From sequence record MZ501103: DNA of 64,000 nt. The stretch is one strand, 5' to 3'. Positions 4,787-64,000 of the stretch are shown in pieces; the first letter of the stretch is position 1; every line of letters begins with the position of its first letter. The DNA is from Escherichia phage SelmaRatti. The notes under the pieces are model-generated. The model did no database searches, was not told where the DNA came from, and saw nothing but the letters and a program-made list of their open reading frames with translations. Made by a program: the position numbers and the translations under genes.

Positions 4787-4848
4787 ATTTAATCTCCTCT
4801 TGGTAAGTAAGTATAACTTCAGTGTTTCTTCTCTAACTTACCAATATA

Positions 4849-7259: not shown

Positions 7260-7290
7260 AGCCCCCTCCCCTTAGGTTTAATTTACCAGA

Positions 7291-8833: not shown

Positions 8834-8860
8834 ATTTCTTCCTTATCAATTTATATAAAT

Positions 8861-8889
8861 ATTATAGCAAGTATTTAAGCATTTAGCAA
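8861..8889 (-). promoter_or_regulatory. sigma70-type early promoter for ligase subunit B operon
   Basis: rc reads TTGCTA-17-TATAAT then ataaattga box. Confidence 0.55.
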
Positions 8890-9032
8890 CTACAATTTTA
8901 ACTAACTTTGCTTACCCTCGCCATAACTTTCTATCCCTCAACTGAATGATAATAGTATATACCTAAGCGGCGAAAATGTCAATAACCACTTTATAATTCC
9001 GATATGGTAGATGGGTAGCAAAGGGTTATGTA

Positions 9033-10004
9033 TTAATCGTATACTCGCTCTACTATACACGGGATTACACCACCAGCACGAATCACTCGAATTTGGCAAC
9101 CGATCTCTAGATCAAGAGAGTTAATATAATCAACGTTATTAAGAGTCGCTTTAACAATTGTAGCATCATCAATAATTACCGGTTCGAAATAACCAACTGG
9201 AGTTACTTTACCAGAAGCCCCTACCTGCCATTCAACTTTAGTAAGAGTTGTAATCTCGCCTTCTTCATCCTCTTTAATAGCGAATGCTCCGCGAGGGAAT
9301 TTATTAGTCCAGCCTTCTCGGAAGAATTTGTTGTTGTCATTAATACGAACAACTTTACCATCTGTCGGAATCCATTTAAAGAAGGAACGCACATTAACAA
9401 CTGTTAAGAAGTTCTCATTCTCTAGCCAAAGCATATCTTTTAAATACGTTTCTGTAATACCTACAGATTCAGCAGAACACTGGATACCATATGCAACGAA
9501 GATTAAACCACCTTCTCCGATACGTTGTACGAAATCATCACTATCTTTTAGGTTAATAGCACCAGAGGCAAAGTTACGTTTATTTTCTACTTCTTTTGTA
9601 ATTAGAACTTCACCAGTGATTTGAGTAGGTACTTTTTGGGAAATCTTTTTAGGGATGTTCAGCAATCTTACGTTGCTTGTGACATCATTCCCTAGAATAC
9701 CATTACCACGAGTTAGTGCTTGAACAAATTCGCCATTAATATATAACAAAGAAATCGCACAACCATCTAACTTATCAGTTTCTACCTGACCTAATGGGTT
9801 AAACGGAGGTTTATCCCCACGATTATAATAAACTTTCTGTAAAGAATACATACGATACAGATGTGGGATATCACCCTTAGGCCCGATCTCTTCTTCTAAC
9901 GGGAATCTTTTAATAAGACGATCATATTCTTCGTCAGAGATTAAAGACATTCCCTGGTAATACGCTTCTTGACAACGTTTAATAAAGTCTTTTATATTAG
10001 TCAT
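9033..10004 (-). CDS. NAD-dependent DNA ligase, N-terminal adenylation/OB portion (subunit A)
   Basis: Adenylation motif TDKLDGCAISL (KxDG) and LigA-like flanking sequence; separate ORF from the C-terminal part. Confidence 0.8.
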   Translation of the reverse strand: MTNIKDFIKRCQEAYYQGMSLISDEEYDRLIKRFPLEEEIGPKGDIPHLYRMYSLQKVYYNRGDKPPFNPLGQVETDKLDGCAISLLYINGEFVQALTRGNGILGNDVTSNVRLLNIPKKISQKVPTQITGEVLITKEVENKRNFASGAINLKDSDDFVQRIGEGGLIFVAYGIQCSAESVGITETYLKDMLWLENENFLTVVNVRSFFKWIPTDGKVVRINDNNKFFREGWTNKFPRGAFAIKEDEEGEITTLTKVEWQVGASGKVTPVGYFEPVIIDDATIVKATLNNVDYINSLDLEIGCQIRVIRAGGVIPCIVERVYD

Positions 10005-10277
10005 TTATTCTGCCTCATAGTACGTGGGTTGTCTAGTGGATCCGTGCCATGTAAAATTTTTGCAGAGATGCAAATACGTGGTTTTTACTAGCCTACCTGA
10101 CAATGGAGAGTATATTTCAGCTATTAATACTTCTTTTTCGTAATGAAGTGAAATCAGCTTATACCCACTTCTAGTTTTAGTATACTTTTCTCCATTAATC
10201 TTCTCCTCCCACATAAGTATAAGAGGCTGTCCGATATATGGGAAAGGTTTAAGTGTACTTATATTTATCTTTTTCAC
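10005..10277 (-). CDS. hypothetical protein (90 aa)
   Basis: ORF abutting ligase subunit A start; own upstream promoter. Confidence 0.4.
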   Translation of the reverse strand: MKKINISTLKPFPYIGQPLILMWEEKINGEKYTKTRSGYKLISLHYEKEVLIAEIYSPLSGRLVKTTYLHLCKNFTWHGSTRQPTYYEAE

Positions 10278-20742: not shown

Positions 20743-21634
20743 TGATTATTTCCTCGATAAACTTTATAGCTACTTTTGGTTCAATATTGAAGAATTCCGT
20801 AGCACCGTCAAAATCTTTGTACTGGCAATTCTGCTCTTTAAAGTAGTTATGGGCTAATTTTTCTATTAGAACTGCACCACTATATTCTCCAATTTCAAAT
20901 ACTTTAATTATTTCCAAATCAGTAAGGTGGCTACTAGACCTAATATGTAGAAGTCTACGCTCTGGATTGTTAGATCTACCTATTTTAACTCCGTGTGATG
21001 GGCTATGCATAACATATATCTTAGTACTTTCTAAATCTCTATAACTACAGTAAGGACAACCATTCCCTCTTAATACAGATCCTGGAGTAGCTTCCCACCT
21101 ATGCCCTGCACCACAAAGAAAGGCGGTCTTAGTATTCGCATTACTATACTCACCCACTATTCTGATATTTCTGGCAGCAAGACGATCATTTATAGTATTA
21201 ACACTAAGTTTCTGTTTATTAGCAGCACAAGATGGGCAGCCACTACCTCTATTAATTATACTATTAAGTGTAGTAGCCCACTCATGACCACAAACACACC
21301 TAAATTTAGTATTTATATCAGCACTATTTTTATAGCCGTTCAACAATGTAATACCTCTGTCCTGTAATATAGTATTAATTTTATCAATATCTAGTTTACG
21401 GCTACTAATAGAGCAAGTATGACACTTGGTCTTTCCATTCCTAATGGCGTCAAATTTAGCTGTCCATTGATGACCGTATTCGCACTGATACGTATGCCTA
21501 TACCTAGAATTTTGATATGGCTTATCCACCATAGTAAAACCACGCTCGGCTAGGCATTTATCTACTTCTTCTTGAGTTAATTTTTTCGGCATTCCACTTC
21601 TCCACAGAATTTTTACACCTATTATACTAAACAT
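20729..21634 (-). CDS. zinc-ribbon repeat + T5orf172/GIY-YIG-like domain protein (homing-endonuclease-like)
   Basis: Three C..GH.W...C..C repeats and C-terminal IYVMHSPSHGVKIGRSNNPERRL. Confidence 0.6.
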   Translation of the reverse strand: MFSIIGVKILWRSGMPKKLTQEEVDKCLAERGFTMVDKPYQNSRYRHTYQCEYGHQWTAKFDAIRNGKTKCHTCSISSRKLDIDKINTILQDRGITLLNGYKNSADINTKFRCVCGHEWATTLNSIINRGSGCPSCAANKQKLSVNTINDRLAARNIRIVGEYSNANTKTAFLCGAGHRWEATPGSVLRGNGCPYCSYRDLESTKIYVMHSPSHGVKIGRSNNPERRLLHIRSSSHLTDLEIIKVFEIGEYSGAVLIEKLAHNYFKEQNCQYKDFDGATEFFNIEPKVAIKFIEEIINDRE

Positions 21635-21649
21635 TATCCACTATGTCAA
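21621..21649 (-). promoter_or_regulatory. sigma70-type promoter of divergent pair (minus arm)
   Basis: rc reads TTGACA-17-TATAAT. Confidence 0.55.
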
Positions 21650-21786
21650 TTAAAATTTTCTTTCGCCATCTAATACTGTAATATTTCGCGTATAAATAAA
21701 TGATTATCTAGTATCATATTTCTACCTTTATAAGCAAGTAAATTTTTTATTTAAAAGCAATATCATAGGTTTATTTAAAATTATAC

Positions 21787-21815
21787 TTGCTTTTTGCTGT
21801 AAACCTTGTTATAAT
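21787..21815 (+). promoter_or_regulatory. sigma70-type promoter of divergent pair (plus arm, phoH)
   Basis: TTGCTT-17-TATAAT. Confidence 0.55.
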
Positions 21816-21891
21816 ATATTTGTAAGTTGATAAACAAGATCTCTTTGTTGATCCTCTGTTAGAAGCGAAGTACACTATAGGAGTGTTATTT

Positions 21892-22644
21892 ATGGGAAAA
21901 GCACGTCAAAAAAGAGAGAACCGCAATGGTTCAAGAAAGCGTGGCAACAAATATGAGAATAACGTAATTCAGGCTGATTTTTCTAATGATTACGCTAACC
22001 CAGTTGCTAAATCCCTAGTAGGTAAAAACCGAGAGCAAAAATCATATATCAATATGATCAAGAACAACACAGTGACTGTGGGTATTGGTGAGCCAGGTAC
22101 TGGTAAAACCTTTATCCCGTCTGTTCTTGCAGCTCAGGAACTCGTAGACATTCACTCAGATATTGAGCAAGTGATTCTAGTCCGTCCTAATGAACCTCTA
22201 GGTAAGTCTCTTGGTATGCTTCCTGGTGATCTAGCAGAAAAGCTAGAGCCTTGGTTAGAGCCAATAGCTGATGGTATGAAATGGGCCATCGGTGATCATG
22301 CCTATAATGGGTATGTCGAACGTCAGAAAATTAAATTTTTGGCTGTAGAACATGCTCGTGGCAGAACTTTCAACAACTCCTATGTAATTGTCGATGAAGC
22401 TCAGAATATTTCCGTTGAGGCAATGATTTGTCTCCTAACTCGTGTAGGACAAGACTGCCGTTTAATTATCTGTGGAGATATAGCTCAGAAAGACATTAAA
22501 GGTGACTCAGGTCTAGCACTCCTTATGGAAGTCTATGAAAAATACGAAAATGCCCCATTCTCAATGATCGAATTGATTGATAACGTTCGTTCTGTTGAGT
22601 CTAAAGCATTCTATGATATTTTTAAAGACATGGGGAAGGTGTAA
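21892..22644 (+). CDS. phoH: PhoH-like ATPase
   Basis: Walker A GEPGTGKTF, Walker B VIVDEAQN; ATG 21892 chosen for RBS spacing. Confidence 0.8.
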   Translation: MGKARQKRENRNGSRKRGNKYENNVIQADFSNDYANPVAKSLVGKNREQKSYINMIKNNTVTVGIGEPGTGKTFIPSVLAAQELVDIHSDIEQVILVRPNEPLGKSLGMLPGDLAEKLEPWLEPIADGMKWAIGDHAYNGYVERQKIKFLAVEHARGRTFNNSYVIVDEAQNISVEAMICLLTRVGQDCRLIICGDIAQKDIKGDSGLALLMEVYEKYENAPFSMIELIDNVRSVESKAFYDIFKDMGKV

Positions 22645-37455: not shown

Positions 37456-37530
37456 CGGGGTGTAGTCTAAGGGAGAGGCAGGAGTCTTCTAAATTCCTTT
37501 ATGCAGGTTCGAATCCTGTCACCTCGGCCA
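37456..37530 (+). tRNA. tRNA-Arg (anticodon TCT)
   Basis: Hand-folded cloverleaf: acceptor cggggtg/cacctcg, anticodon loop cttctaa, T-arm gcagg-ttcgaat-cctgt, encoded CCA. Confidence 0.7.
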
Positions 37531-37564
37531 ATTTTATTAACTGTAACTAAAACAAAGGAAATAT

Positions 37565-38512
37565 ATGTTTAATACTAAAAATATGAAAGAACTAACTTCT
37601 GAGCAGAAAGTAATTCGTACTATTAAACGTTGGGGGATTGGTGCTGTAGTTGGTTTAGCAGGTTTAATCCTAGCTTTTAATTCATATACTATTGTTTCTG
37701 ATGGTACGGTTAAAACTCAAACATTCCTGGGTAAAGTAGACCCTAATCCAGTATTACCTGGTTTCCATATTGTAAACCCGTTTGCATCTTTCGATACTTT
37801 CAGTACAAAAGATATTGCTGTAAAATTAGATAAACTTCAGGTTCCTAGTCAGGATAAGTTTAAATCCACTGTTGACCTGACTGTTATGTTACAATTTGAT
37901 GGTTCTAAGGCACCGATCAACCGTATTAATGCAGGTACTCAGGATCAGGCTCTAGATAAGTACGTAACTGAAAAATTACTGTCCACTATTCGTGAGTTCG
38001 GTAAGTCTGTACCTAAAGCACAAGATTTATTTGATGCTAAAATTCAGGCTCAATTGCAAACTGCAATTCAACAGGAAGTTGAAGAGTATGCACGCCCATA
38101 TGGTTACACAGTTAAGCAGGTATTCCTTCAGGATATTACTTTGCCACCGGTAATCATGGAACAGGTACAGAATACCAAAGTTCGTGAAGAACAGGTTAAT
38201 GCTGCTAAAGCTGAATTAGCTCGTGTTGAACAGGAAGCACAGCAAAAAGTTAAACAAGCAGAAGCAGATCGTGAAGCTCGCAACAACCAAGCTATCGCTA
38301 ATGAACGTGACGCAGATGCTAAACTGTACGCAGCTAAGAAAGAAGCTGAAGCTAACGCCGCACTGCAACGTACCATTACTCCTGAGATGATTCGTTGGAA
38401 ACAACTGGAAGTTGAGATGATTCGTGCTCAGAAATATCAAGGTGGTGTGCCGCAGACTGTGGTTGGCACTGGTTACGATGGCCAGATGATTATGGATATG
38501 CGTAATAAGTAA
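37565..38512 (+). CDS. SPFH/band-7 membrane protein
   Basis: N-terminal TM helix, band-7-like core, C-terminal coiled coil. Confidence 0.55.
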   Translation: MFNTKNMKELTSEQKVIRTIKRWGIGAVVGLAGLILAFNSYTIVSDGTVKTQTFLGKVDPNPVLPGFHIVNPFASFDTFSTKDIAVKLDKLQVPSQDKFKSTVDLTVMLQFDGSKAPINRINAGTQDQALDKYVTEKLLSTIREFGKSVPKAQDLFDAKIQAQLQTAIQQEVEEYARPYGYTVKQVFLQDITLPPVIMEQVQNTKVREEQVNAAKAELARVEQEAQQKVKQAEADREARNNQAIANERDADAKLYAAKKEAEANAALQRTITPEMIRWKQLEVEMIRAQKYQGGVPQTVVGTGYDGQMIMDMRNK

Positions 38513-38588
38513 TATCCACGCGTAATATTCGAAGTAAGCCCTGTGTTTCCTGGAGAGCGCAGGCAATTAAATGAATTTATATAAAATT

Positions 38589-38621
38589 TTGCTTGTTTTT
38601 GCGCGTAAAATTTTATATAAT
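38589..38621 (+). promoter_or_regulatory. sigma70-type early promoter
   Basis: TTGCTT then TATATAAT; exact -10 register ambiguous. Confidence 0.45.
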
Positions 38622-38651
38622 ATTTACTCAAATTTGGAAGAATACGTTAAC

Positions 38652-39023
38652 ATGAATACTAATAAGAAAGGAAATATAGGGCTAGGAAGTGCGATTGCTC
38701 ACTTTACTAGTAAAGGTTTGATTGTTTCACTACCTTTAAATGACAGTCAAGATTACGATCTAATCGTAGATATGGGGGGTACTCTAAATAAAGTTCAGGT
38801 GAAATATACCTCCCAAAAGGCACCCTCTGGTAGTTATATTCTAGCTATGAGAAGTACAAGTGGCACTTCTAGAGTAGCGTATAAGACTCTTAATGAAACT
38901 AATATTGATTTAGTGTTTGTGTATACTGATCAGTATCAGTTGTTAATTCCAATTAAGAAATTAACTAATAAAAATCAAACTACCCTTACTAAAGAATTAG
39001 TACAAGAATTCCGAGTTATATAA
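38652..39023 (+). CDS. hypothetical protein, possible PD-(D/E)xK nuclease fold
   Basis: ATG 38652 chosen because the longer ORF starts inside the promoter; DYDLIVD...KVQVK motif. Confidence 0.4.
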   Translation: MNTNKKGNIGLGSAIAHFTSKGLIVSLPLNDSQDYDLIVDMGGTLNKVQVKYTSQKAPSGSYILAMRSTSGTSRVAYKTLNETNIDLVFVYTDQYQLLIPIKKLTNKNQTTLTKELVQEFRVI

Positions 39024-39025
39024 AA

Positions 39026-39115
39026 GGAAGAATACGTTAAAAGGTAAACGAGCTGATTGCTAATCAGTAGCTCTGAAATATAGCCTTGTGGGTTCGATTC
39101 CCACTTCTTCCGCCA
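39026..39115 (+). tRNA. tRNA-Ser (anticodon GCT), type II
   Basis: Acceptor ggaagaa/ttcttcc, anticodon loop ttgctaa, long variable arm, T-arm gtggg-ttcgatt-cccac, encoded CCA. Confidence 0.7.
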
Positions 39116-39121
39116 AACATA

Positions 39122-39196
39122 GGGTCGGTAGCTTAAAGTTAAAGCGGTGGCCTCATAAGCTAACGAGTAGGAGTTAGATTCTCCTCCGACCCACCA
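39122..39196 (+). tRNA. tRNA with anticodon CAT (Met or Ile2)
   Basis: Acceptor gggtcgg/ccgaccc perfect, anticodon loop ctcataa, T-arm aggag-ttagatt-ctcct, encoded CCA. Confidence 0.6.
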
Positions 39197-39211
39197 AATT
39201 AAGGAAATAAG

Positions 39212-39379
39212 ATGTATAGACATCCACCTCCGCCAACACGTCGTTCTAGAGAAGTTATCCTCATGGAATTGACTAAAAACTTCAAGGCAACTCTTGAAGA
39301 TAGAGATTTAGGCACAGATGAAGATGTTGATTTCATCTGTAAACTATTAAAAATGAAACTGGAGAAACAACATGGCTAA
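39212..39379 (+). CDS. small hypothetical protein (55 aa)
   Basis: RBS aagga; stop overlaps next ORF start. Confidence 0.3.
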   Translation: MYRHPPPPTRRSREVILMELTKNFKATLEDRDLGTDEDVDFICKLLKMKLEKQHG

Positions 39380-39578
39380 TCCTGAAATTACCGCACAACG
39401 TTTCATGCTTAAAGGCATGATTGCTGAGGCAGGTATGACTCAAGAAGTTGTAGATTTTCAAAAGCAATTCCTCAATATTCTCACTCAAGCCAAAGAGCTA
39501 GGAGAGAAAGAACATGGAGCAGCAATTATGGCTATATCTCTTATTAGTCTAGACTTGGCTGAAGAATCAGGAGTTTAA
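39372..39578 (+). CDS. hypothetical protein (68 aa)
   Basis: ORF. Confidence 0.4.
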   Translation: MANPEITAQRFMLKGMIAEAGMTQEVVDFQKQFLNILTQAKELGEKEHGAAIMAISLISLDLAEESGV

Positions 39579-39608
39579 CTCCTCCAAGCAGAAATTTTAA
39601 AAATGTAC

Positions 39609-39638
39609 TTGCCTTTTGCTTTAAATTTCTGATATAAT
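39609..39638 (+). promoter_or_regulatory. sigma70-type early promoter
   Basis: TTGCCT-18-TATAAT. Confidence 0.5.
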
Positions 39639-39649
39639 AGTTATATAAA

Positions 39650-39943
39650 TTGATGAGAGGAATCAGAATGTCAAAACGTGTTACAGCAACTGGTATTGAA
39701 AGTGTAATCTGCAAATCCTGGGAAGACAGGGAAGGTGAGATTGAATGGCTTTATTTCTATGATGTAGAACTTCTACCGGAAGTTAAAGCTAAATGTATTG
39801 AAGCTGGTATGGCTCCTGATGCTACTGCTGATGTTGAGATTATCATGAATAAGCTAGAGGGTCTGGTAATCACTGTTAGTGATGAGGGCGAAGAAGTCTT
39901 CGAACTTCCGTTCTCCTTAACTGTCACTCCTAAGTTCGACTAA
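39650..39943 (+). CDS. hypothetical protein (97 aa)
   Basis: Promoter 39609-39638, RBS gagagg. Confidence 0.45.
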   Translation: MMRGIRMSKRVTATGIESVICKSWEDREGEIEWLYFYDVELLPEVKAKCIEAGMAPDATADVEIIMNKLEGLVITVSDEGEEVFELPFSLTVTPKFD

Positions 39944-39979
39944 CTAATACAGCACTGAGCAAGTTCTTCAAAATTTTAC

Positions 39980-40008
39980 TTGCTCAGTGCCATAAAACTT
40001 GATATAAT
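39980..40008 (+). promoter_or_regulatory. sigma70-type early promoter upstream of tRNA-Tyr
   Basis: TTGCTC-17-TATAAT; -35 lies inside an 11-bp inverted repeat. Confidence 0.5.
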
Positions 40009-40071
40009 AGTTATCTAATTTGGAAACATATTTAAAAGTGTTTAAACTAGTATTTGAATACTTTTAAATGT

Positions 40072-40155
40072 GCATCGTTGGCAGAATGGCTATTGCAGCG
40101 GTCTGTAAATCCGTGCCCTTCGGGGTTGGTGGTTCAAATCCATCACGATGCACCA
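40072..40155 (+). tRNA. tRNA-Tyr (anticodon GTA), long variable arm
   Basis: Acceptor gcatcgt/acgatgc perfect, anticodon loop ctgtaaa, variable hairpin gccc-ttcg-gggt, encoded CCA. Confidence 0.7.
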
Positions 40156-40172
40156 AATTAAAGGAGCTGCTG

Positions 40173-40445
40173 ATGCATCCTGAAAACTTCTTTATTTACT
40201 GCGAGGATAAGTAGCTGAAACGTAGAATTAACAAAGTCTATCATTATCGTGCTAGTCAACAGCCTTATATATACGCTTTTGACGGTGATCACATTCCACT
40301 AGAACAATTATCCTGTGATTACATGATATTGAAGAACTTTGACGAGACAAAGATCTCAAGCGTTCATAATCGACAGAATCCATTAACGTGGAAATATAAG
40401 AAGAAAAAGAAAGGCATCAAATTCTTAAAAAATGTAGTTGCTTAG
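40173..40445 (+). pseudogene. ORF with strong RBS interrupted by in-frame TAG at codon 14 (40212-40214); pseudogene or amber read-through
   Basis: aaggag then ATG 40173; 13 codons, TAG, then 76 further sense codons in frame. Confidence 0.3.
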
Positions 40446-40466
40446 TTTCCAAAAGTTCTGTATAAT
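40438..40466 (+). promoter_or_regulatory. sigma70-type early promoter upstream of tRNA-Cys
   Basis: TTGCTT-17-TATAAT then cataaattgaa. Confidence 0.55.
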
Positions 40467-40514
40467 AATTACATAAATTGAACTGGAGAAGCAACATGAC
40501 AGAACAAGGTAAAT

Positions 40515-40587
40515 CGACCGTTGGCTGAATTGCTTAGGTGAAGGATTGCAAATCCTTTTTATGTGAGTTCAAATCTCATGCGGTCGT
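40515..40587 (+). tRNA. tRNA-Cys (anticodon GCA)
   Basis: Acceptor cgaccgt/gcggtcg (one G-U), anticodon arm aagga-ttgcaaa-tcctt perfect, T-arm gtgag-ttcaaat-ctcat. Confidence 0.65.
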
Positions 40588-40596
40588 CTAAATTTT

Positions 40597-40680
40597 AGGG
40601 TCGTTAGCCAAGTGGTTTGGCGGCGGATTGTTAATCCGTGTCGAAAGACAACGTAGGTTCGATTCCTGCACCCGCTGCCA
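40597..40680 (+). tRNA. tRNA-like gene, candidate Asn (GTT); acceptor stem imperfect
   Basis: D-arm, anticodon arm gcgga-ttgttaa-tccgt, T-arm and CCA fold well, but acceptor pairs only 4/7 and an extra gtc-gaaa-gac hairpin sits in the variable region. Confidence 0.35.
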
Positions 40681-40700
40681 TCTTAATAGAGGATTTCGAA

Positions 40701-40865
40701 ATGAAAGTATTTCGATTAGTAGTAAGTGATCGACGTTCTAGCAAAGATCGTTCGAAGTATACCTTAGCCCACTATGGTAAAGATGAAAAAGAAGTAATGG
40801 TGGAGTTTGGGATTAATCATCGCTACTTAGAAGTTTACTCTATTAAGGAAGTTTATCCGTATTAA
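40701..40865 (+). CDS. small hypothetical protein (54 aa)
   Basis: RBS agagga then ATG 40701; the longer ORF would start inside the preceding tRNA. Confidence 0.35.
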   Translation: MKVFRLVVSDRRSSKDRSKYTLAHYGKDEKEVMVEFGINHRYLEVYSIKEVYPY

Positions 40866-40943
40866 GGGTCGTTAGCTCAATTGGTTAGTAGCACTTGCCT
40901 TTTAAGCAATAGGTTGAAGGTTCGAGTCCTTCACTACCCACCA
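40866..40943 (+). tRNA. tRNA-Lys (anticodon TTT)
   Basis: Acceptor gggtcgt/actaccc (one mismatch), anticodon loop cttttaa, T-arm gaagg-ttcgagt-ccttc, encoded CCA. Confidence 0.6.
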
Positions 40944-40950
40944 AATTTTT

Positions 40951-41024
40951 GCTCGGTTAGTTTAATGGGAGAACCCCGTCTTTACACGGCGGTTGCGATA
41001 GTTCGATTCTATCACCGAGTACCA
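40951..41024 (+). tRNA. tRNA-Val (anticodon TAC)
   Basis: Acceptor gctcggt/accgagt, D-arm gttt/gaac, anticodon arm ccgtc-tttacac-ggcgg, T-arm gatag-ttcgatt-ctatc, encoded CCA. Confidence 0.75.
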
Positions 41025-41043
41025 ATTAACTCAAAATAAGGAA

Positions 41044-41409
41044 TTGCAAATGCAATTATCAAGCAAGATTCAAGGTTATTTCGGTCATGTGACAATGGAG
41101 TTCGCTATCTCTAAAGGTTGGGATTTCGAGCAAGATCTAGCTGAGTTCTACAAAGATATTGATCTGAACGTACCGTATATGGGACTTTCTACTGGTCAGG
41201 AGATCACAGAAGCCGATGTATTCAAGGCAAGTCAAGGTGAGATAACACCTAGTTTTGCCACTTTTTGGAGTGGCTTCACAATTAAAGAAGAAGCTCCAGA
41301 TGATGATGTATTTATGCAAAGCATGCACTCTGGGAGTTCTGATATGTTATTTGTTAAAGATGTACGACATATCCAAGAAGTGGTAAAAACGTATTTGCAA
41401 AATGCTTAA
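41044..41409 (+). CDS. hypothetical protein (121 aa)
   Basis: ORF with RBS aaggaa. Confidence 0.45.
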   Translation: MQMQLSSKIQGYFGHVTMEFAISKGWDFEQDLAEFYKDIDLNVPYMGLSTGQEITEADVFKASQGEITPSFATFWSGFTIKEEAPDDDVFMQSMHSGSSDMLFVKDVRHIQEVVKTYLQNA

Positions 41410-41423
41410 TTTCTTGTTATAAT
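41395..41423 (+). promoter_or_regulatory. sigma70-type early promoter driving unannotated RNA region
   Basis: TTGCAA-17-TATAAT then tataaattgatg. Confidence 0.5.
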
Positions 41424-41756
41424 ATTTATATAAATTGATGCGAAAATAGCTGCCTAGATACCAGGTGTATGACGTCTACACTAGCAGAGCTACCGAAAAA
41501 GAGATCCTCAGGATAAACGTCGTAGCAAAATTAGTCTGGTATCCATCAATTTAGTTCACTAAGGTATTAGCTCGACCTAGGACTGGCTGCCAAAAAGCAC
41601 GACCCCTACGACTCGGGAGAAGTTCTAGATTAGTCCACTAGATTCAGCGGCAACTGAATAGTGTATCGGGTTTGTGAAGAGCGGCTATCCTCTACTGGCT
41701 AATGTATGAGGTTAGTACGCACACCGAGCTAATAGCCTTAGTAAACTAAAGAATTT

Positions 41757-41831
41757 GGGCGAATAGTGTCAGCGGGAGCACACCAGACTTGCAATCTGGG
41801 AGGGAGGGTTCGAGCCACTCTTTGTCCACCA
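41757..41831 (+). tRNA. tRNA-Ala (anticodon TGC)
   Basis: Acceptor gggcgaa/tttgtcc (G-U pairs incl. G3-U70), anticodon arm ccaga-cttgcaa-tctgg perfect, T-loop ttcgagc, encoded CCA. Confidence 0.6.
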
Positions 41832-41955
41832 AATTAAAAAGAATGCGCGCGATTGACGGAATAGGTATACGTGTAAGCCTTAGAAGTTGAATTTTGAGGG
41901 TTCGAATCCCATCGAGGCGTAACTGCCTGGTGTGATAGAGGCATCATCTTATTAT

Positions 41956-42046
41956 TGGAAGAGCAAATCGAATTGGCGACGAAAACCGCTGGGAAAGTGG
42001 CTGACTGGTAAAACGGCTTGAGAGTTCAAATCTCTCCTCTTCCGCC
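41956..42046 (+). tRNA. type II tRNA-like gene (Leu/Ser class?), anticodon arm not resolved
   Basis: Perfect acceptor ggaagag/ctcttcc, T-arm gagag-ttcaaat-ctctc, CCA, D-loop gaattggcgac; no canonical anticodon stem found by hand. Confidence 0.35.
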
Positions 42047-42059
42047 AAACAATTTATAA

Positions 42060-42154
42060 GGTAGGTCAATCCAACGGCTGGCGATGGACTCCGACTTGAA
42101 ATCGGTTGATCGTAGTGATACGGTGTAAGGGTTCGATCCCCTTACCTACCTCCA
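42060..42154 (+). tRNA. tRNA-Ser (anticodon TGA), type II
   Basis: Acceptor ggtaggt/acctacc perfect, anticodon loop cttgaaa, variable hairpin cgta-gtga-tacg, T-arm aaggg-ttcgatc-ccctt, CCA. Confidence 0.65.
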
Positions 42155-42628
42155 AATCTTGAAGTATGCCGGAATCGGTAGACGGGGCTTCCTAAAGGGC
42201 GTAAGGGGAACATCCACTCCTCATAAGATACCCGAAAACGAGGCTGAGATAAATGGTCTATCTCGTGAAGGTTCAAGTCCTTCTGCTTCTTGATACCTCT
42301 ATGGCTCAAAGTGTAACGGTGCTATTTGATGCTCTTAGTAAGACTTTCCCGACATGCGTTCGGGGGTAAGCTGCTAAGACTAGAGTAGAAGAGTTTCGGA
42401 GAGCCGCCACAATTGAAAATTCGTACTCGTCTTGAGCTGCGTGCAATAGGAGATAACTTGATTAGTATTCTAGAACATGCTAATTGAGGAAGGTTTCTCT
42501 AACCCTGCGAGTTTTCAATTGTGGCTATATCATAATTGGTTAATGATCCTGATTGTGAATCAGGCCTTCCAAGCCTCGCTGAGTAGGGTTCGATTCCCTC
42601 TAGCAGCTCCAACTTTAAGGAAACATTT

Positions 42629-59586: not shown

Positions 59587-59751
59587 ATGCTCGTAGGTTC
59601 GTTAGTAGTTATATTAGCACTTCTACTAATCTGCAATATTCTTAATAATAAGAATTTAGAGTTAAAGTGTGAGAACCAAATCCTTAATCGTGAACTTACA
59701 CAATATAATGTAGCAGCTCGCAAGCTGTTAGACAAACTGGAGAATAAATAA
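59587..59751 (+). CDS. small membrane-anchored protein (54 aa)
   Basis: Below the ORF-track cutoff; TAATG overlaps at both ends. Confidence 0.3.
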   Translation: MLVGSLVVILALLLICNILNNKNLELKCENQILNRELTQYNVAARKLLDKLENK

Positions 59752-60362
59752 TGTTTACACAACAAACCATTAAAGTAGTAGCAGATCATGAACTCGACAC
59801 ATGGGATTACAGCTTTAAAGATCTGACTGCTACAGTACAGTTTAAATCTATGCAACTGTCGTTTTTGCACACTGATCTTCAAGGTTGTAAAGAGTTTCAG
59901 GCTAAGCTCATCGATGCTCGTAAGATTTTTGGTACGGCTCGCATCCCGGCTGATAACCTGATTAATGCACTAATCGATGCAGGGTACAAACTCGTGAAGA
60001 CCGAGGTGAACCGCCCTAGTACTCCAGTGACTATTAGAGATCCGTGGCAGTCAGGGACAATCTCAATGCTGAATAACTCCGATAAAAGATTAATGTCGGA
60101 TATGCACAATGTTCATTGTGGTGGTGTGGTAAGCAATACGCAATCATATAAGTTTGGTGAAGATTGCGGCCCTTCTGTACAGCTGCAACATACCCAAGAG
60201 GCTTTTGAATCTGATATGCGAAGCGTAGCACCTGAGGATGCTGGAGTTTCTAGGAGTTCTGTTTGTACTATTCATTTTAATAATCTTAGGCCTGGGAATA
60301 TAAATGATACTATCCTTGAAGCGTTGGGGGCTGCTCTTAATGAAGATAAGAGAGGTAGTTAA
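59751..60362 (+). CDS. hypothetical protein (203 aa)
   Basis: ORF, coupled start. Confidence 0.45.
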   Translation: MFTQQTIKVVADHELDTWDYSFKDLTATVQFKSMQLSFLHTDLQGCKEFQAKLIDARKIFGTARIPADNLINALIDAGYKLVKTEVNRPSTPVTIRDPWQSGTISMLNNSDKRLMSDMHNVHCGGVVSNTQSYKFGEDCGPSVQLQHTQEAFESDMRSVAPEDAGVSRSSVCTIHFNNLRPGNINDTILEALGAALNEDKRGS

Positions 60363-60709: not shown

Positions 60710-61419
60710 TTAAAGAAGCTGAAAAATTAAAACGTCTCATCCAGTTAGCGCGTGGTGCTACACAAAAGAGTCTTTCACAGCTAACTGATGAAGAAAAATA
60801 TGCAGTAATGTTTTTAGGAGATCATTATCCTGCTAAGTGGGATAAGGGTAAGATCAAATATGATCGTGATGCAAAACAAGTAGTTTGGTCAGGCTCATAT
60901 GTAGAGGTGAATAAAGCATTAAAGGCTTTAGATCCTGCAGCAAAAGGTTTCTCTTCTAATGCTATTCATATTCTAATTGATGAAGATCTCCCAAGATTTA
61001 AGGAAGCATCATTTAAAGAAGCATTAGCTAGCGAAGATCTTATTCCTTTCAAACATGGCAAATATGCACATCTTCCTCCACTAGAAAAAGAGAAACCAAC
61101 TCTAGTTAAAGATGAAGTTTATCGTGGGATTGGCACAATGCTAGCGAGTTTGACTGTAGCTCTCCATAAAGATCTAGAGTTAACGCCCTTAGAAAATGCT
61201 GTGCATTTCATGTGCCATAAATATGAGGATACATTTAAAGAACTATGTAAGTCGCTAGGAATGCCAAGTTACACGATATTAAACTACGCTCCTGAGTATA
61301 CTAGAGCAGCTCGCGGAACTATGGATTACGATGATACAGGATCAACTGCTTCCTATTTAGCAACTTATATCTACTTCGCATCCTTAGGTATCAAACTCAA
61401 ATCCAAGAAGGAGGAATAA
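60706..61419 (+). CDS. hypothetical protein (237 aa)
   Basis: Last plus-strand gene before the non-coding repeat locus. Confidence 0.45.
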   Translation: MIKEAEKLKRLIQLARGATQKSLSQLTDEEKYAVMFLGDHYPAKWDKGKIKYDRDAKQVVWSGSYVEVNKALKALDPAAKGFSSNAIHILIDEDLPRFKEASFKEALASEDLIPFKHGKYAHLPPLEKEKPTLVKDEVYRGIGTMLASLTVALHKDLELTPLENAVHFMCHKYEDTFKELCKSLGMPSYTILNYAPEYTRAARGTMDYDDTGSTASYLATYIYFASLGIKLKSKKEE

Positions 61420-61437
61420 AAGTTAACAAAATTTTCT

Positions 61438-61466
61438 TGACAACTCATTGCGGCACATGTTATAAT
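61438..61466 (+). promoter_or_regulatory. near-consensus sigma70 promoter with no ORF downstream
   Basis: TTGACA-17/18-TATAAT; terminator about 165 nt downstream. Confidence 0.5.
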
Positions 61467-61603
61467 AATCTCATAGATTAACAACTACTCTAGTTGATTA
61501 ACTCTAGGGGCGATGATTATTACACGAATGTCTCGTATAGCTTGCGGCTGAGCAACAGCGGTATGACGGCATGAGTACTCACGTAATTAATCACGCGCCC
61601 CCA

Positions 61604-61640
61604 GGAGAGACTCTCATGAAATTGGGGGTCTCTTTTTCTT
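61604..61640 (+). terminator. rho-independent terminator closing the ORF-less transcription unit
   Basis: agagac...gtctct stem then tttttcttt. Confidence 0.5.
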
Positions 61641-61893
61641 TATATTATTTAAATATTTAAATATTTTTAATGGCAATATCTGTGTTCAAGATGATACACC
61701 GGTTGCCGCTCATCTGCTAGGATGGCACAACACTTTCTAGTAGACTCCTAAGTTTCTAGGAAAACTCTCACTTTCTAGGGCAGTTTCTCTCCAACGTTAC
61801 ATATCCTAGGCCGGTTTTCCTATACAGGGCGGTTATGGGGAGGGCGGTTATTTCTAGAAGACATTTTTTGAAAACATTTTTCCAGAAATTACT

Positions 61894-62495
61894 GTCGGAT
61901 TTGCACCTTGTGTTTCTAGAAATTTATGGTCGGATTTGCACAATCGCCTAAGTTTTTAGGAACATATAATCTCCTGAAAATGGCAGCATTATTTCGGGCC
62001 GAAGGCCCATGATTGCCTGAGTTTTTAGGGCCACAGAAATTTTCACTTGTCAAGCTATTTTGCCCCATTTTGCTAATAAAATTTTACTTTTTCTGCACCT
62101 ATCTCAAATTAACCCAAATTATCTCAACTCTTCCCCAAAATCCCCGCAAATCGGGTGCCCCGCACCAAACATGCGCCCCTCTCACAGTTCCCTCAAATTT
62201 CTCTCGCTATCTCACCTTCACTACAAACCTATACAATCACACACCATCTCATCGAAGTCACAAAAATTTCATCGGATTCGCACAGCTCAACACATGTCGG
62301 ATTTGCACATACTCTAGCTAATTCCACAGGATTCGAACGCAGTTCGTGATTGCTGGAGTTTTTAGGGAGACAGATTCGTCACTCTCACGAATTTATAAAT
62401 TTTTTTCGGGTCGGATTTGCACACTACCAAAAATTGTCGGATTTGCACATACATGCCCGCACGTAACACCCGTGGAGCATTGTCGGATTTGCACA
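61894..62495. repeat. seven direct copies of a 13-bp iteron-like repeat GTCGGATTTGCACA
   Basis: Copies at 61894, 61929, 62272 (variant), 62296, 62410, 62436, 62483, all same orientation; interspersed with repeated TTTCTAG(G/A) and GTTTTTAGGG motifs. Confidence 0.7.
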
Positions 62496-62520
62496 AAAGC
62501 GCAGGGCAATTGCCCTGCTC

Positions 62521-62700
62521 GCCTGAATGCGAATGATAATGAGAATCAATCTCGTTTAAAAAGCTGAATGCGAATGATAATGATTCGCATTTAAGAAAGG
62601 GAATGAGAACTATTCAAGAAGTGAAATGATTCTCATTTAAAAAGTGGAGTGATTATCGGTTAGCTAGTGAAATGCGAATGATAATGATTCGCATTTAAAA
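62521..62700. repeat. three copies of GAATGCGAATGATAATGA, two extended to perfect palindromes
   Basis: Copies at 62525, 62566, 62671; AATGCGAATGATAATGATTCGCATT is an inverted repeat; related palindrome aatgagaa...ttctcatt at 62611-62637. Confidence 0.7.
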
Positions 62701-62728
62701 ATGGAAGTGAGAAACACTATTATTTAAG

Positions 62729-62810
62729 TTATCCACAGACTTATCAACAGCACGATTTGACTTGACAGAATCCTAGCCATTTTGAGGCGTTATTAACAGA
62801 CTTATCCACA
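62729..62810 (+). promoter_or_regulatory. two consensus DnaA boxes (TTATCCACA) plus degenerate copies
   Basis: TTATCCACA at 62729-62737 and 62802-62810; variants ttatcaaca and ttatcctac adjacent. Confidence 0.5.
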
Positions 62811-63078
62811 GCTTATCCTACTGTATAAATATACAGTATTCCTATGTAGTGAATAATTCTAATATAGGCCTAAAACGTCCTGAATCGCATTCTAACGCGT
62901 TTAATTTTGGTGGAGGTATTTTAATATGGGGAAATTTGAGGAAGGCCATAAAAGGTGGGGCCAGTAGTTGCGCCCCGTGATTATTAGTGGTAGATATATT
63001 TTTGCCAATAGCGGCGGATACTGTCGCCACCAGCGGAATCATTCACAGCCTCAACATTACCCGCGAAAATATATAATC

Positions 63079-63423
63079 TCATTGTGCCACCTTTCGAAAC
63101 GCTATTTCAATACTATCCGCAGTGGATTGAATATATGCGCCTTTCATTATCAGGCGCTCGGTGCATATCTTGCGAAAAATGTTGATAAAATCATCTTCAT
63201 TTTCTGCAATTAATGCCTCACCCATAACCTGAACGTCACAAGACCCAAAAGTTAAAAATTGAAACGCTAGTTCACGGGCGACAACGGCAGAAATTTTATA
63301 ATGCGCCTTACCCTCATAAATATTAACCACGCCTTTATAAACTGGTGAAAGCTGATTTAAATAGTTTGCTAATAATGCCGGACGGCAATTAGCAACAAAA
63401 CGATTGCCCTCATAAATAACCAT
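63079..63423 (-). CDS. hypothetical protein (114 aa), higher-GC block
   Basis: ORF with GC content and codon choice distinct from the rest of the window. Confidence 0.35.
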   Translation of the reverse strand: MVIYEGNRFVANCRPALLANYLNQLSPVYKGVVNIYEGKAHYKISAVVARELAFQFLTFGSCDVQVMGEALIAENEDDFINIFRKICTERLIMKGAYIQSTADSIEIAFRKVAQ

Positions 63424-63944: not shown

Positions 63945-64000
63945 TTTTATTTCCCCTAGTTAGTGGGTGATACTGTATATCCCCCGTTATTACTTACATT

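What the first reader, a model, noticed from the sequence alone, without database searches (positions are those of the whole stretch)
61700..62830. Dense iteron, palindrome and DnaA-box locus at the end of the early region
About 1.1 kb of non-coding DNA carries seven GTCGGATTTGCACA repeats, repeated TTTCTAG and GTTTTTAGGG motifs, three GAATGCGAATGATAATGA copies (two as perfect palindromes) and two consensus TTATCCACA DnaA boxes. This combination is typical of a protein-binding control region, either a replication origin or the DNA-transfer pause locus described near the T5 terminal repeat. Which proteins bind the 13-bp iteron is unknown.
Basis: partly seen in the sequence, partly recalled or inferred. 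Interest (0 to 1): 0.6.

Follow-up and report, generated by a model that had tools for sequence, protein, structure and literature searches.

The report
T5-type injection-stop and terminal-repeat junction
This repeat-dense non-coding stretch is this phage's copy of the already described phage-T5 "injection stop signal" region at the inner end of the left terminal repeat, so it is a real and conserved control region but not a new discovery.

Summary
Between the last early gene (ends 61419) and the last pre-early gene (62984-63082, minus strand) lie seven co-oriented GTCGGATTTGCACA iterons (5 exact, 2 variant), CTAG and GTTTTTAGG motifs, three AATGCGAATGATAATGA copies and two consensus DnaA boxes. 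The two palindromes are 22/25 self-complementary, not perfect.

The window is a T5-like phage read in reverse orientation. Element by element, the locus matches T5 "Repeat Region 3", the injection-stop-signal (iss) region described by Heusterspreute 1987, Wang 2005 and Davison 2020. It is therefore already known.

The terminal-repeat end lies inside the locus at 62027|62028. The T5 7.9% nick motif sits at 62499-62506. Each consensus DnaA box has a near-consensus partner 3 bp away.

The named elements are 92-99% conserved in 17 relatives, against about 78% for the spacers and for third codon positions nearby. The same layout occurs in Pectobacterium, Klebsiella and Vibrio phages. The Vibrio phage keeps the DnaA boxes but has a different iteron, which suggests a phage-encoded iteron binder and a host factor for the boxes. 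Nothing supports a replication origin.

How the pause works is still untested. An unpublished possibility is that the iterons flanking the repeat end are packaging or end-processing signals.

The parts
61734..61922 (+). CTAG/TTTCTAG cluster on the unique (early-region) side. TTTCTAG sits at 61734, 61753, 61772, 61851 and 61913, plus 61916 on the minus strand.
   Evidence: Seven CTAG in 230 bp is the window maximum. Two of the five copies are invariant in 17 relatives; mean conservation is 0.81.
61827..61851 (+). Tandem GGGCGGTTAT x2 (61827-61836 and 61842-61851), running into TTTCTAGAAGAC.
   Evidence: Read. Invariant in 17 relatives. Also present in Pectobacterium phage My1 as GGGCGGTTTAGGGGGAGGGCGGTTATTCCCTAGAC.
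61894..61942 (+). Unique-side iteron pair: 61894-61907 (GTCGGATTTGCACC) and 61929-61942 (exact). These correspond to T5 DRD8 and DRD7.
   Evidence: Conservation is about 0.92 across 17 relatives.
61941..61968 (+). Copy 1 of the 28-nt (C)CT(A/G)AGTTTTTAGG repeat family. The other copies are at 62010-62037 and 62347-62374.
   Evidence: (family D5).
61985..62100 (.). Nearly invariant block around the terminal-repeat end. It contains the hairpin GGGCCGAAGGCCC (61996-62008), GAGTTTTTA|GGGCCACAGAAATTTTCACTTGTCAAGC, and TTTTGCCCC.
   Evidence: Mean conservation 0.95 in 17 relatives. The motif recurs at measured repeat ends in IME260 and My1.
62027..62028 (.). Inferred right end of the left terminal repeat: the unique region is <=62027 and the repeat is >=62028. 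This equals the right physical end of the virion DNA in relatives.
   Evidence: - The annotated T5 LTR end (10139) maps here.
- The BF23 PhageTerm end (9743) maps here.
- The HdH2 record end and at least 7 other assembled right ends map here.
- The limit of LTR/RTR identity in IME260 and My1 falls at the homologous motif.
- It was not measured in this phage, because the window holds only one repeat copy.
62040..62260 (+). Strand-asymmetric C-run tract just inside the repeat (CCCC at 62063, 62133, 62142, 62158, 62176). It includes the T5 DRA2/DRA3 homologues at 62103-62141.
   Evidence: GC skew falls to -0.6. C-runs are listed. C-run tracts occupy the same place in IME260 and My1.
62271..62495 (+). 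Repeat-side iteron array: 62271-62284 (variant ATCGGATTCGCACA), then 62296-62309, 62410-62423, 62436-62449 and 62482-62495. These correspond to T5 DRD6, 5, 3, 2 and 1. T5 DRD4 and DRD9 have no counterpart here.
   Evidence: All 220 sites found in 25 genomes are co-oriented within each locus.
62499..62518 (.). GCGCAGGG (62499-62506), the motif of the T5 major 7.9% single-strand nick. It overlaps palindrome J, GCAGGGCAATTGCCCTGC (62501-62518), which on the minus strand also looks like an intrinsic terminator facing the pre-early operon.
   Evidence: Conservation is 0.99. The nick itself was not tested.
62525..62713 (.). Palindrome-rich segment. It holds two 67-nt DRE repeats (62543-62609 and 62647-62713), three AATGCGAATGATAATGA copies, and near-palindromes at 62567-62591 and 62671-62695 (T5 DRC1-4, palE-I).
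   Evidence: The single-strand DNA fold of 62495-62845 has z = -5.2 against shuffles.
62706..62838 (+). IRC'-spacer-IRD' element with two DnaA-box pairs, plus palindrome D.
- IRC' is 62706-62744.
- Pair 1 is TTATCCACA (62729-62737) and TTATCAACA (62741-62749).
- The spacer is 51 bp.
- Pair 2 is TTATTAACA (62790-62798) and TTATCCACA (62802-62810).
- IRD' is 62796-62836.
- palD is 62819-62838.
   Evidence: Conservation is 0.95. The element is found in 541 phage records, one of them annotated 'similar to DNA injection stop signal on T5st0mutant'. The box pair and palD are kept in a Vibrio phage.

Best explanation
The locus is this phage's orthologue of phage T5 'Repeat Region 3'. That is the conserved non-coding junction between the pre-early genes of the left terminal repeat and the early genes, and it contains the presumed first-step-transfer injection stop signal (iss). 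It is a composite of cis-acting modules. In the order of DNA entry (window right to left) they are:

1. A 131-bp IRD'-spacer-IRC' element with two 12-bp-phased DnaA-box pairs.
2. Palindrome-rich DRE/DRC repeats.
3. The 7.9% nick motif.
4. Five co-oriented 14-15-bp DRD iterons.
5. A C-run tract.
6. The terminal-repeat end itself (62027|62028).
7. Two more iterons and CTAG/GGGCGGTTA motifs on the unique side.

What is shown here: identity, position, anatomy, purifying selection, and the same layout in four Demerecviridae lineages.

What is inferred, with my own estimates:
- The DnaA-box pairs and palindromes are the part that has just entered the cell when transfer pauses. They are held by a host factor, and membrane-associated DnaA is the published candidate. 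I put this at about 0.35-0.4.
- The iterons are bound by a phage-encoded sequence-specific protein, at about 0.6. That protein serves either the restart of transfer (the DNA-binding A2 protein is the obvious candidate) or recognition of the repeat end during packaging.
For: Identity and position:
- The region matches 456 T5-like phage records. It sits at 8.5-10.8 kb from their left ends, in reverse orientation.
- Annotated BF23, HdH2 and T5 records show the left terminal repeat ending inside it.
- A global alignment transfers the mapped T5 features (palD, IRD', DRB1/2, IRC', DRC1-4, palE-J, nick 1, DRA2/3, the LTR end, and seven of the nine DRD copies) onto the window with near-identical sequences. 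palC lay outside the aligned piece, and DRD4 and DRD9 have no counterpart.
- The literature describes exactly this region as the iss.

Constraint:
- Named elements are 0.92-0.99 conserved in 17 relatives. The remaining positions are 0.785, and third codon positions of flanking pre-early genes are 0.73-0.85.

Repeat end:
- The end maps to 62028 by six independent routes.

Deep conservation:
- My1 (Mccorquodalevirinae), IME260 (Sugarlandvirus) and a Vibrio Pogseptimavirus share the module order.
- In the Vibrio phage the pair TTATCCACA-N3-TTATCCACA and palD are retained.
- The Vibrio iteron is different: TAGAATCCGCACTCACA, 5 co-oriented copies in two clusters. No T5-type iteron is present.
- This fits a universal host partner for the boxes and a co-evolving phage partner for the iterons.

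The iteron is not a plain DnaA box:
- GTCGG is invariant, and the position equivalent to DnaA-box T4 varies between T and C.
Against: [quoted passage not shown]
- The pause site was located only from the roughly 7.9% length of sheared FST DNA.
- Half of the 'DnaA boxes' are non-consensus (A at position 6) yet conserved, so the true binder may not be DnaA.
- DnaA consensus sites are not enriched in the window as a whole.
- The Vibrio comparison rests on one lineage, and its repeat end could not be measured because all nine Vibrio records hold a single copy.
- The inverted partner element (IRC-spacer-IRD) that Davison considers part of the iss lies outside the window.
- The repeat end in this particular phage is inferred by homology, not measured.
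Confidence: 0.88

Rival explanations
1. Packaging or end-processing site. The two iteron arrays and the invariant block between them are primarily the recognition and cleavage site at which terminase, or an associated end-processing enzyme, cuts concatemers to create the right genome end and duplicate the 10-kb repeat. The iterons would play the role of small-terminase binding boxes on both sides of the cut. This is not exclusive with an injection-stop role for the neighbouring DnaA-box and palindrome modules.
For: - The repeat end lies in the large gap between two co-oriented iteron arrays in three lineages where it could be measured or is annotated. The unique-side copies sit at -130 to -443 and the repeat-side copies at +136 to +485.
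- The same two-cluster layout, with a similar central motif, occurs in the Vibrio phage.
- The most conserved block of the whole locus (0.95) surrounds the end, and its motif TTTTT(A)|G(G/A)GCCACAG..TTGTCAA..CCCC recurs across lineages.
- Iterons occur only at the right boundary, not the left one. From my own knowledge, last-in-first-out packaging predicts this: the left end enters cells first, so the right end is packaged first and carries the initiation cut.
- Iteron sequence co-varies with phage lineage.
- Also from my own knowledge, repeated boxes flanking a cut are the known layout of SPP1 pacL/pacC/pacR and lambda cosQ/cosN/cosB.
Against: - There are no data on T5 terminase recognition; a literature search found none.
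- The iterons begin immediately to the right of the estimated pause point, which fits a transfer-restart role equally well.
- The packaging direction of T5 is assumed, not shown here.
- The small terminase subunit is outside the window, so covariation could not be tested.
Confidence: 0.3
2. Structure-only or virion-intrinsic stop. The pause is caused by DNA secondary structure or topology, without DnaA. Candidates are cruciforms from the palindromes, pairing between the two inverted 131-bp elements, or a protein or DNA obstacle at the portal or tail.
For: - The palindrome segment folds far better than shuffles (z = -5.2).
- A 131-bp inverted partner exists 2-4.7 kb further into the repeat in relatives.
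- Geometry: a tail of about 175 nm holds about 515 bp. With the pause near T5 9.6 kb, the portal would therefore sit near the repeat end and the unique-side iterons. This is my inference.
Against: - Complete ejection occurs in vitro into FhuA proteoliposomes, which argues that the stop needs the host cell (Davison 2020).
- Some lineages lack the inverted partner (Type 4 phages).
- The exact consensus DnaA boxes are retained from E. coli to Vibrio phages, which a purely structural role does not require.
Confidence: 0.2
3. Replication origin. Iterons plus DnaA boxes plus an AT-rich tract would act as an iteron-type or oriC-type origin.
For: - Co-oriented direct repeats and two consensus DnaA boxes lie within about 900 bp.
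- A 95% AT stretch lies at 61633-61672.
Against: - Transcription is convergent, with terminators on both flanks.
- The cumulative GC-skew turning points coincide with gene-orientation switches, and this locus is the convergent one.
- There is no 13-mer DUE array and no GATC site in 1.7 kb, against about 5.5 expected.
- Iteron spacings are irregular: 25, 26, 35, 46, 114 and 342 bp.
- The iterons are split by the physical genome end.
- No initiator-like gene is adjacent; the neighbours are small proteins of unknown function.
- EM studies cited by Davison place T5 origins near the genome centre, and T5 replication genes are not yet in the cell during the pause.
Confidence: 0.04

Closest known systems
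Phage T5 injection stop signal region, 'Repeat Region 3' of the left terminal repeat (Heusterspreute et al. 1987, Gene 52:155; Wang et al. 2005 annotation of AY587007; Davison 2020, bioRxiv 10.1101/866236)
   Same: - Same genomic position.
- Same order and near-identical sequence of palD, IRD', the DnaA-box pairs (DRB), IRC', the DRC/DRE palindromes, palJ, the nick-1 motif, the DRD iterons, DRA and the repeat end.
- About 86% overall identity.
   Different: - There are seven iterons instead of nine; T5 DRD4 and DRD9 have no counterpart.
- The IRD' box is consensus TTATCCACA here, where T5 has TTATCCCCA.
- A promoter-to-terminator unit of about 265 bp (61420-61684), absent from T5, lies next to it.
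- The inverted partner element is outside the window.
E. coli oriC and other chromosomal DnaA-box clusters (datA, DARS). This comparison rests on my own knowledge.
   Same: - Consensus 9-mers TTATCCACA.
- Each has an adjacent weaker same-orientation box 3 bp away, resembling a high-affinity site that nucleates binding to a neighbouring low-affinity site.
   Different: - Only two pairs are present.
- There is no AT-rich 13-mer unwinding element and no GATC sites.
- The context is convergent transcription.
- The locus sits at a genome end rather than at a mapped origin.
Iteron-type plasmid origins (pSC101, P1, F, R6K). This comparison rests on my own knowledge.
   Same: Multiple co-oriented direct repeats lie close to DnaA boxes and an AT-rich tract.
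   Different: - The iteron is 14-15 bp rather than 17-22 bp.
- Spacing is irregular, from 25 to 342 bp.
- The array is split in two by the physical genome end.
- There is no adjacent initiator gene.
Terminase recognition sites with repeated boxes flanking the cut (SPP1 pacL-pacC-pacR; lambda cosQ-cosN-cosB; short repeat arrays beside the T7 terminal repeat). This comparison rests on my own knowledge.
   Same: A precise DNA end lies between arrays of short repeated sequences, inside a strongly conserved block.
   Different: - No binding or cleavage data exist for T5-like phages.
- The arrays extend over about 600 bp.
- The same region is also where DNA transfer pauses.

Membership tests
T5 iss / Repeat Region 3 | Non-coding stretch between the last pre-early gene and the first early gene, spanning the right end of the left terminal repeat | tested here: met
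   - The flanking genes are homologues of T5 ORF016/017 (phrog_4379, phrog_22819) and an early gene (phrog_8993).
- Matches lie at 8.5-10.8 kb of T5-like genomes.
- The repeat end maps to 62028.
T5 iss / Repeat Region 3 | 131-bp IRD'-spacer-IRC' element with two DnaA-box pairs (boxes 3 bp apart) and a spacer of about 51-52 bp | tested here: met
   The element spans 62706-62836. The boxes are at 62729, 62741, 62790 and 62802, and the spacer is 51 bp.
T5 iss / Repeat Region 3 | Inverted partner IRC-spacer-IRD located 2-4 kb further into the repeat | not testable with these tools
   No inverted copy exists within the window. The expected position is beyond base 64000. Relatives carry the partner 2-4.7 kb away.
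T5 iss / Repeat Region 3 | Two ~66-bp DRE repeats containing DRC repeats and palindromes E-I | tested here: met
   The repeats are at 62543-62609 and 62647-62713 and are 78% alike. The palindromes map one-to-one onto T5.
T5 iss / Repeat Region 3 | Array of DRD repeats (TGTCGGATTTGCACA) on both sides of the repeat end | tested here: met
   Seven copies are present, five inside and two outside the repeat, all on the + strand.
T5 iss / Repeat Region 3 | Major single-strand nick at 7.9% next to palindrome J | tested here: inconclusive
   The motif GCGCAGGG and palJ are conserved at 62499-62518. Whether the virion DNA is actually nicked there cannot be seen from sequence.
T5 iss / Repeat Region 3 | DNA transfer pauses here until A1 and A2 are made | not testable with these tools
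   This is a functional property. It has been shown experimentally only for T5 and BF23, and even there only to about 8% resolution.
DnaA-dependent (oriC-type) replication origin | AT-rich unwinding element with 13-mer repeats next to a DnaA-box cluster, plus GATC enrichment | tested here: not met
   Only one weak 13-mer-like match was found, and it lies inside a terminator tail. There are zero GATC sites in 61400-63100.
DnaA-dependent (oriC-type) replication origin | Strand-composition switch or divergent organisation at the site | tested here: not met
   The gene arrangement is convergent. Skew extremes coincide with gene-orientation switches.
Iteron-type (Rep-dependent) origin | Regularly phased iterons with an adjacent initiator gene | tested here: not met
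   Spacings are 35, 342, 25, 114, 26 and 46 bp. The neighbours are small proteins of unknown function.
Terminase recognition/cleavage site at a direct-terminal-repeat boundary | Coincides with a precise physical genome end | tested here: met
   Met by homology only. The ends of the T5, BF23 (PhageTerm), HdH2, IME260 and My1 repeats all fall at the conserved motif that corresponds to 62027|62028.
Terminase recognition/cleavage site at a direct-terminal-repeat boundary | Binding of the small terminase subunit to repeated boxes, and cleavage that depends on them | not testable with these tools
   No biochemical data were found. The terminase genes lie outside the window.

The most novel reading that the evidence does not exclude
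The DRD iterons are not part of the stop signal. They would be the binding sites of a phage-encoded protein that marks the right end of the terminal repeat for terminase-linked cutting and repeat duplication. That would make them the so far unidentified packaging-initiation (pac-like) site of T5-like phages. The host-factor (DnaA-box) module next to them would be the separate element that pauses DNA entry.

The evidence that allows this reading:
- Two co-oriented iteron arrays flank the measured repeat end in three lineages.
- The conserved cut-site motif lies between them.
- No iterons occur at the left boundary.
- The iteron sequence is lineage-specific in a Vibrio phage that keeps the DnaA boxes unchanged.
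Probability: 0.3. Interest if true: 0.55.

Novelty: already known. Interest (0 to 1): 0.25.

Why it matters
Two-step DNA transfer by T5 has been known for more than 50 years, yet the cis-acting stop signal has never been dissected experimentally. This window adds one more well-conserved copy of that region and no new kind of element.

The comparative points made here could help turn the old question into defined experiments on separate modules:
- The named motifs evolve like constrained sequence, while the spacers drift at about the synonymous rate.
- The repeat end lies between two iteron arrays in several subfamilies.
- The iteron changes in a Vibrio phage while the DnaA boxes do not.

These points suggest testing host-factor capture, phage-protein binding, and end cutting separately.

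Tried and rejected
- **Rfam scan of 61300-63100.** Only sub-threshold chance hits were found, so no known RNA family explains the repeats.
- **Coding potential of the internal ORFs.** The ORFs tested were 62013-62321, 62346-62567, 61916-62068 and 62842-63042. They show no codon periodicity of conservation and no PHROG hit, so they were rejected as genes.
- **Shared motif between the left and right boundaries of the T5 repeat.** Nothing beyond 7-8-mers was found, and no iterons occur at the left boundary.
- **Iteron as a weak DnaA box.** The 9-mer ATTTGCACA matches TTWTNCACA at 8 of 9 positions. I rejected it as a plain DnaA site because GTCGG is invariant, the T4-equivalent position varies between T and C, and the Vibrio iteron loses the resemblance.
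- **IHF consensus.** No site lies in the locus.
- **Proteus phage 1 locus (L074).** I fetched it through a 43-bp match. It turned out to be a divergent-promoter intergenic region without iterons, not the orthologous junction.
- **Measuring the repeat end in Vibrio phages.** All nine records hold a single copy, so this failed.
- **Davison 2015 review.** It could not be retrieved.
- **Literature on T5 terminase recognition or A2 sequence specificity.** Nothing was found.
Full report
**1. Observation**

- The iteron GTCGGATTTGCACA has 10 matches with <=2 mismatches in the window, against 0.26 expected.
- Seven of these lie in the locus, all on the + strand. Five are exact (61929, 62296, 62410, 62436, 62482) and two are variants (61894, 62271).
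- AATGCGAATGATAATGA occurs three times exactly, against 0.03 expected.
- Two copies extend into 25-nt near-palindromes that are 22/25 self-complementary, so 'perfect' is a slight overstatement.
- GTTTTTAGG occurs 5 times against 0.76 expected, 3 of them here.
- TTTCTAG is only mildly enriched window-wide, but six sites cluster in 61734-61922. That stretch holds the highest CTAG density of the window.
- The DnaA consensus is not enriched window-wide (7 against 7.9 expected). However, the only two TTATCCACA sites lie 73 bp apart.
- Each TTATCCACA has a near-consensus box 3 bp downstream or upstream.
- The stretch is non-coding. Internal ORFs show no codon periodicity in conservation, most indels are not multiples of three, and none has a PHROG hit.

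**2. What the window is**

- The segment matches 456 phage records, almost all Escherichia, Salmonella or Klebsiella T5-like phages. The best hit is Escherichia phage HdH2 at 91%.
- The matches lie on the minus strand at 8.5-10.8 kb of those genomes. The window is therefore a T5-like genome read in reverse.
- Early genes and ten tRNA genes lie upstream. Pre-early genes begin at the far right of the window.
- Annotated relatives show the left terminal repeat ending inside the locus.

**3. Element-by-element identity with T5**

The T5 record AY587007 carries the detailed repeat annotation of Wang et al.. A global alignment transfers those features onto the window.

| T5 feature | Window coordinates |
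|---|---|
| palD | 62819-62838 |
| IRD' | 62796-62836 |
| DRB copies (DnaA-box pairs) | 62728-62750 and 62789-62811 |
| IRC' | 62706-62744 |
| DRC1-4 and palindromes E-I | 62531-62700 |
| palJ | 62501-62518 |
| Major 7.9% nick motif GCGCAGGG | 62499-62506 |
| DRD1, 2, 3, 5, 6 | 62481, 62435, 62410, 62295, 62270 |
| DRA2/3 | 62103-62141 |
| LTR end | 62028 |
| DRD7, 8 | 61929, 61893 |

T5 DRD4 and DRD9 have no counterpart.

This is Davison's 'Repeat Region 3', the presumed injection stop signal. The BF23 genome paper describes the same region, as do two 2026 papers. The finding is therefore a known element.

**4. The terminal-repeat end lies inside the locus**

The window holds only one copy of the repeat, so the end is inferred by homology. 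The evidence is consistent.

- The T5 end (10139) maps to 62028.
- The BF23 end, determined with PhageTerm (9743), maps to exactly the same base.
- The HdH2 right end and at least seven other assembled right ends stop at 62027-62030.
- In Klebsiella phage IME260 and Pectobacterium phage My1, the point where the left and right copies cease to be identical falls at the homologous motif.

The motif at the end, with the unique side in lower case, is:

- Window: gagttttta|GGGCCACAGAAATTTTCACTTGTCAAGC..TTTTGCCCC
- IME260: ttgtttttta|GAGCCACAGGAATTTTTTCTGTGTCAAC..TTTACCCCC
- My1: gtgtgttttt|CCGCCCCCCGAACTTTTTCATTTGTCAAT..TTTTGCCCCC

**5. Constraint**

- In an alignment of 17 relatives, the locus is 84-90% identical overall.
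- The named elements are far more conserved than the remaining positions (0.785):

| Element | Conservation |
|---|---|
| Iterons | 0.92 |
| GAGTTTTTAGG copies | 0.93 |
| Block around the repeat end | 0.95 |
| palJ and nick motif | 0.99 |
| IRC'-spacer-IRD' | 0.95 |

- The remaining positions evolve like third codon positions of the neighbouring pre-early genes (0.73-0.85). The named elements evolve like first and second codon positions (0.85-0.98).
- The motifs are therefore under purifying selection, and the spacers are close to neutral.

**6. Deep comparison**

- A scan of IMG/VR for the exact 15-mer returned 65 stretches. The multi-copy clusters all lie in T5-like genomes of about 104-123 kb.
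- Across 25 genomes, 220 iteron sites are co-oriented within every locus. The core is (T)GTCGGATT(T/C)GCACA.
- My1 is a different subfamily and IME260 a different genus. Both keep the whole grammar:
  - iterons on the unique side;
  - the repeat end;
  - a C-run tract;
  - iterons on the repeat side;
  - palindromes;
  - DnaA-box pairs;
  - palD.
- Davison already compared these phage types, so this conservation is known in outline.
- A Vibrio Pogseptimavirus carries a 37-bp match to IRD'/palD and shows the same layout.
  - It keeps TTATCCACA-cgg-TTATCCACA plus palD and related palindromes.
  - It has a GGGCGCAGAATC..GATTGTCAAGCG motif in a 362-bp gap between two clusters of a different iteron.
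  - That iteron is TAGAATCCGCACTCACA, five exact co-oriented copies. No T5-type iteron is present.

**7. How it most likely works**

Shown here:

- The locus is the T5-type iss and repeat-junction region.
- It is modular, constrained and ancient within Demerecviridae.

From the literature:

- DNA entry starts at the left end and halts after about 8%.
- The halt needs no new protein synthesis.
- Resumption needs A1 and A2.
- A2 binds DNA.
- Complete ejection occurs into FhuA proteoliposomes, so the stop depends on the cell.

Inferred:

[quoted passage not shown] They are therefore the last DNA inside the cell at the pause.
- Exact consensus boxes are retained from E. coli to Vibrio phages. That fits a universal host partner such as DnaA, which is Davison's model. 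I give this about 0.35-0.4.
- The iterons are not plain DnaA boxes, and their sequence changes with lineage. This points to a phage-encoded binder, which I give about 0.6.
- Two roles for the iterons fit the anatomy.
  - One is restart of transfer. The array starts right after the pause point, and A2 is a DNA-binding protein required for the second step.
  - The other is recognition of the repeat end for packaging. The arrays flank the end in every lineage where it can be located, the most conserved block is at the end, and the left boundary has no iterons.
- A tail of about 175 nm holds about 515 bp. At the pause, the repeat end and the unique-side iterons would therefore sit near the portal. 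This is a geometric inference only.

**8. Rivals**

- Replication origin. This is not supported:
  - transcription is convergent, with terminators on both sides;
  - skew turning points track gene orientation;
  - there is no DUE-like array and no GATC site;
  - iteron spacing is irregular;
  - T5 origins are reported near the genome centre.
- Purely structural stop. This remains possible, because the palindromes fold strongly (z = -5.2) and an inverted 131-bp partner exists in relatives. It does not explain the conserved consensus boxes or the complete ejection seen in vitro.
- Chance. This is excluded by the shuffles and by the conservation.

**9. Novelty and verdict**

- The feature is already known. 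It has been sequenced and described since 1987, annotated in T5, and compared across T5-like phages.
- One deposited genome labels the homologous stretch 'similar to DNA injection stop signal'.
- The mechanism is still open, and nothing in this window changes that.
- Three comparative points made here are modest additions that I did not find in the papers I could read:
  - the motifs are constrained while the spacers are not;
  - a conserved cut-site motif lies between two iteron arrays;
  - the iteron co-varies with lineage while the DnaA boxes stay invariant.
- Interest is low to moderate (0.25).

Noticed in passing
window 61437-61645 (+): A perfect sigma-70 promoter (TTGACA, 18 nt with TG, TATAAT; 12/12 matches) is followed by a highly structured transcript of about 170 nt (MFE -63.2 kcal/mol, z = -6.3). 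The transcript ends in a strong intrinsic terminator at 61603-61636. There is no ORF of at least 30 aa and no Rfam family match. The unit is present in HdH2, BF23 and a second sequence type. In that second type the outer stems are kept, five pairs show compensatory changes and the centre is replaced. It is absent from T5 at this position. This is a candidate phage small RNA.
   Followed up: partly
window 62040-62260 (+): A strongly strand-asymmetric C-run tract lies just inside the terminal-repeat end. GC skew falls to -0.6, and there are five CCCC runs and no GGGG run on this strand. On the opposite strand this gives four or more G4 runs. Similar C-run tracts occupy the same position in IME260 and My1. 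The role is unknown.
   Followed up: partly
window 61400-63100: There are no GATC sites in 1.7 kb, although the window averages 3.3 per kb, so about 5.5 would be expected.
   Followed up: no
window 59858-60253 (+), inside ORF 59751-60362: Outlying iteron-like sites lie inside an early gene, about 1.8 kb from the main cluster. They are GTCGTTTTTGCACA at 59858 and GTCGGATATGCACA at 60095, on the same strand as the locus iterons. A TTTCTAG follows at 60247. The same pair of motifs recurs at the equivalent place in relatives L015, L041 and L036.
   Followed up: partly
window 62942-62990: Compared with HdH2 and BF23, the window lacks about 200-310 bp, including a small pre-early ORF (HdH2rev_00017 / BF23_00018). 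The ORF that the window has here instead (62842-63042, minus strand, 66 aa) has no PHROG match.
   Followed up: partly
window 21634-21892: A divergent gene-orientation switch coincides with the minimum of cumulative GC skew for the whole window, at 21726. This corresponds to roughly 50 kb in T5 coordinates, in the central part of the genome where T5 origins have been reported.
   Followed up: no
window 37456-42611 (+): A cluster of ten tRNA genes: Arg, Ser, Met, Tyr, Cys, Lys, Val, Ala, Ser and His. This is typical of the T5 early region.
   Followed up: no
L060 14488-14507 (Klebsiella phage IME260, right end of record KX845404.2): The deposited right terminal repeat ends with 20 nt (GCTTAGAGGGTTGGGGGGTG) that do not match the left copy. 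The annotated repeat (1-10277) therefore over-extends the true identity by 20 nt. This is probably an assembly or adaptor artefact.
   Followed up: partly
phage records OR847365.1 and others: Records labelled Listeria and Campylobacter phages carry this T5-type region at about 95% identity, for example a 3.4-kb 'Listeria phage LM 4-11-1' record. These are probably contaminant or mislabelled sequences.
   Followed up: no
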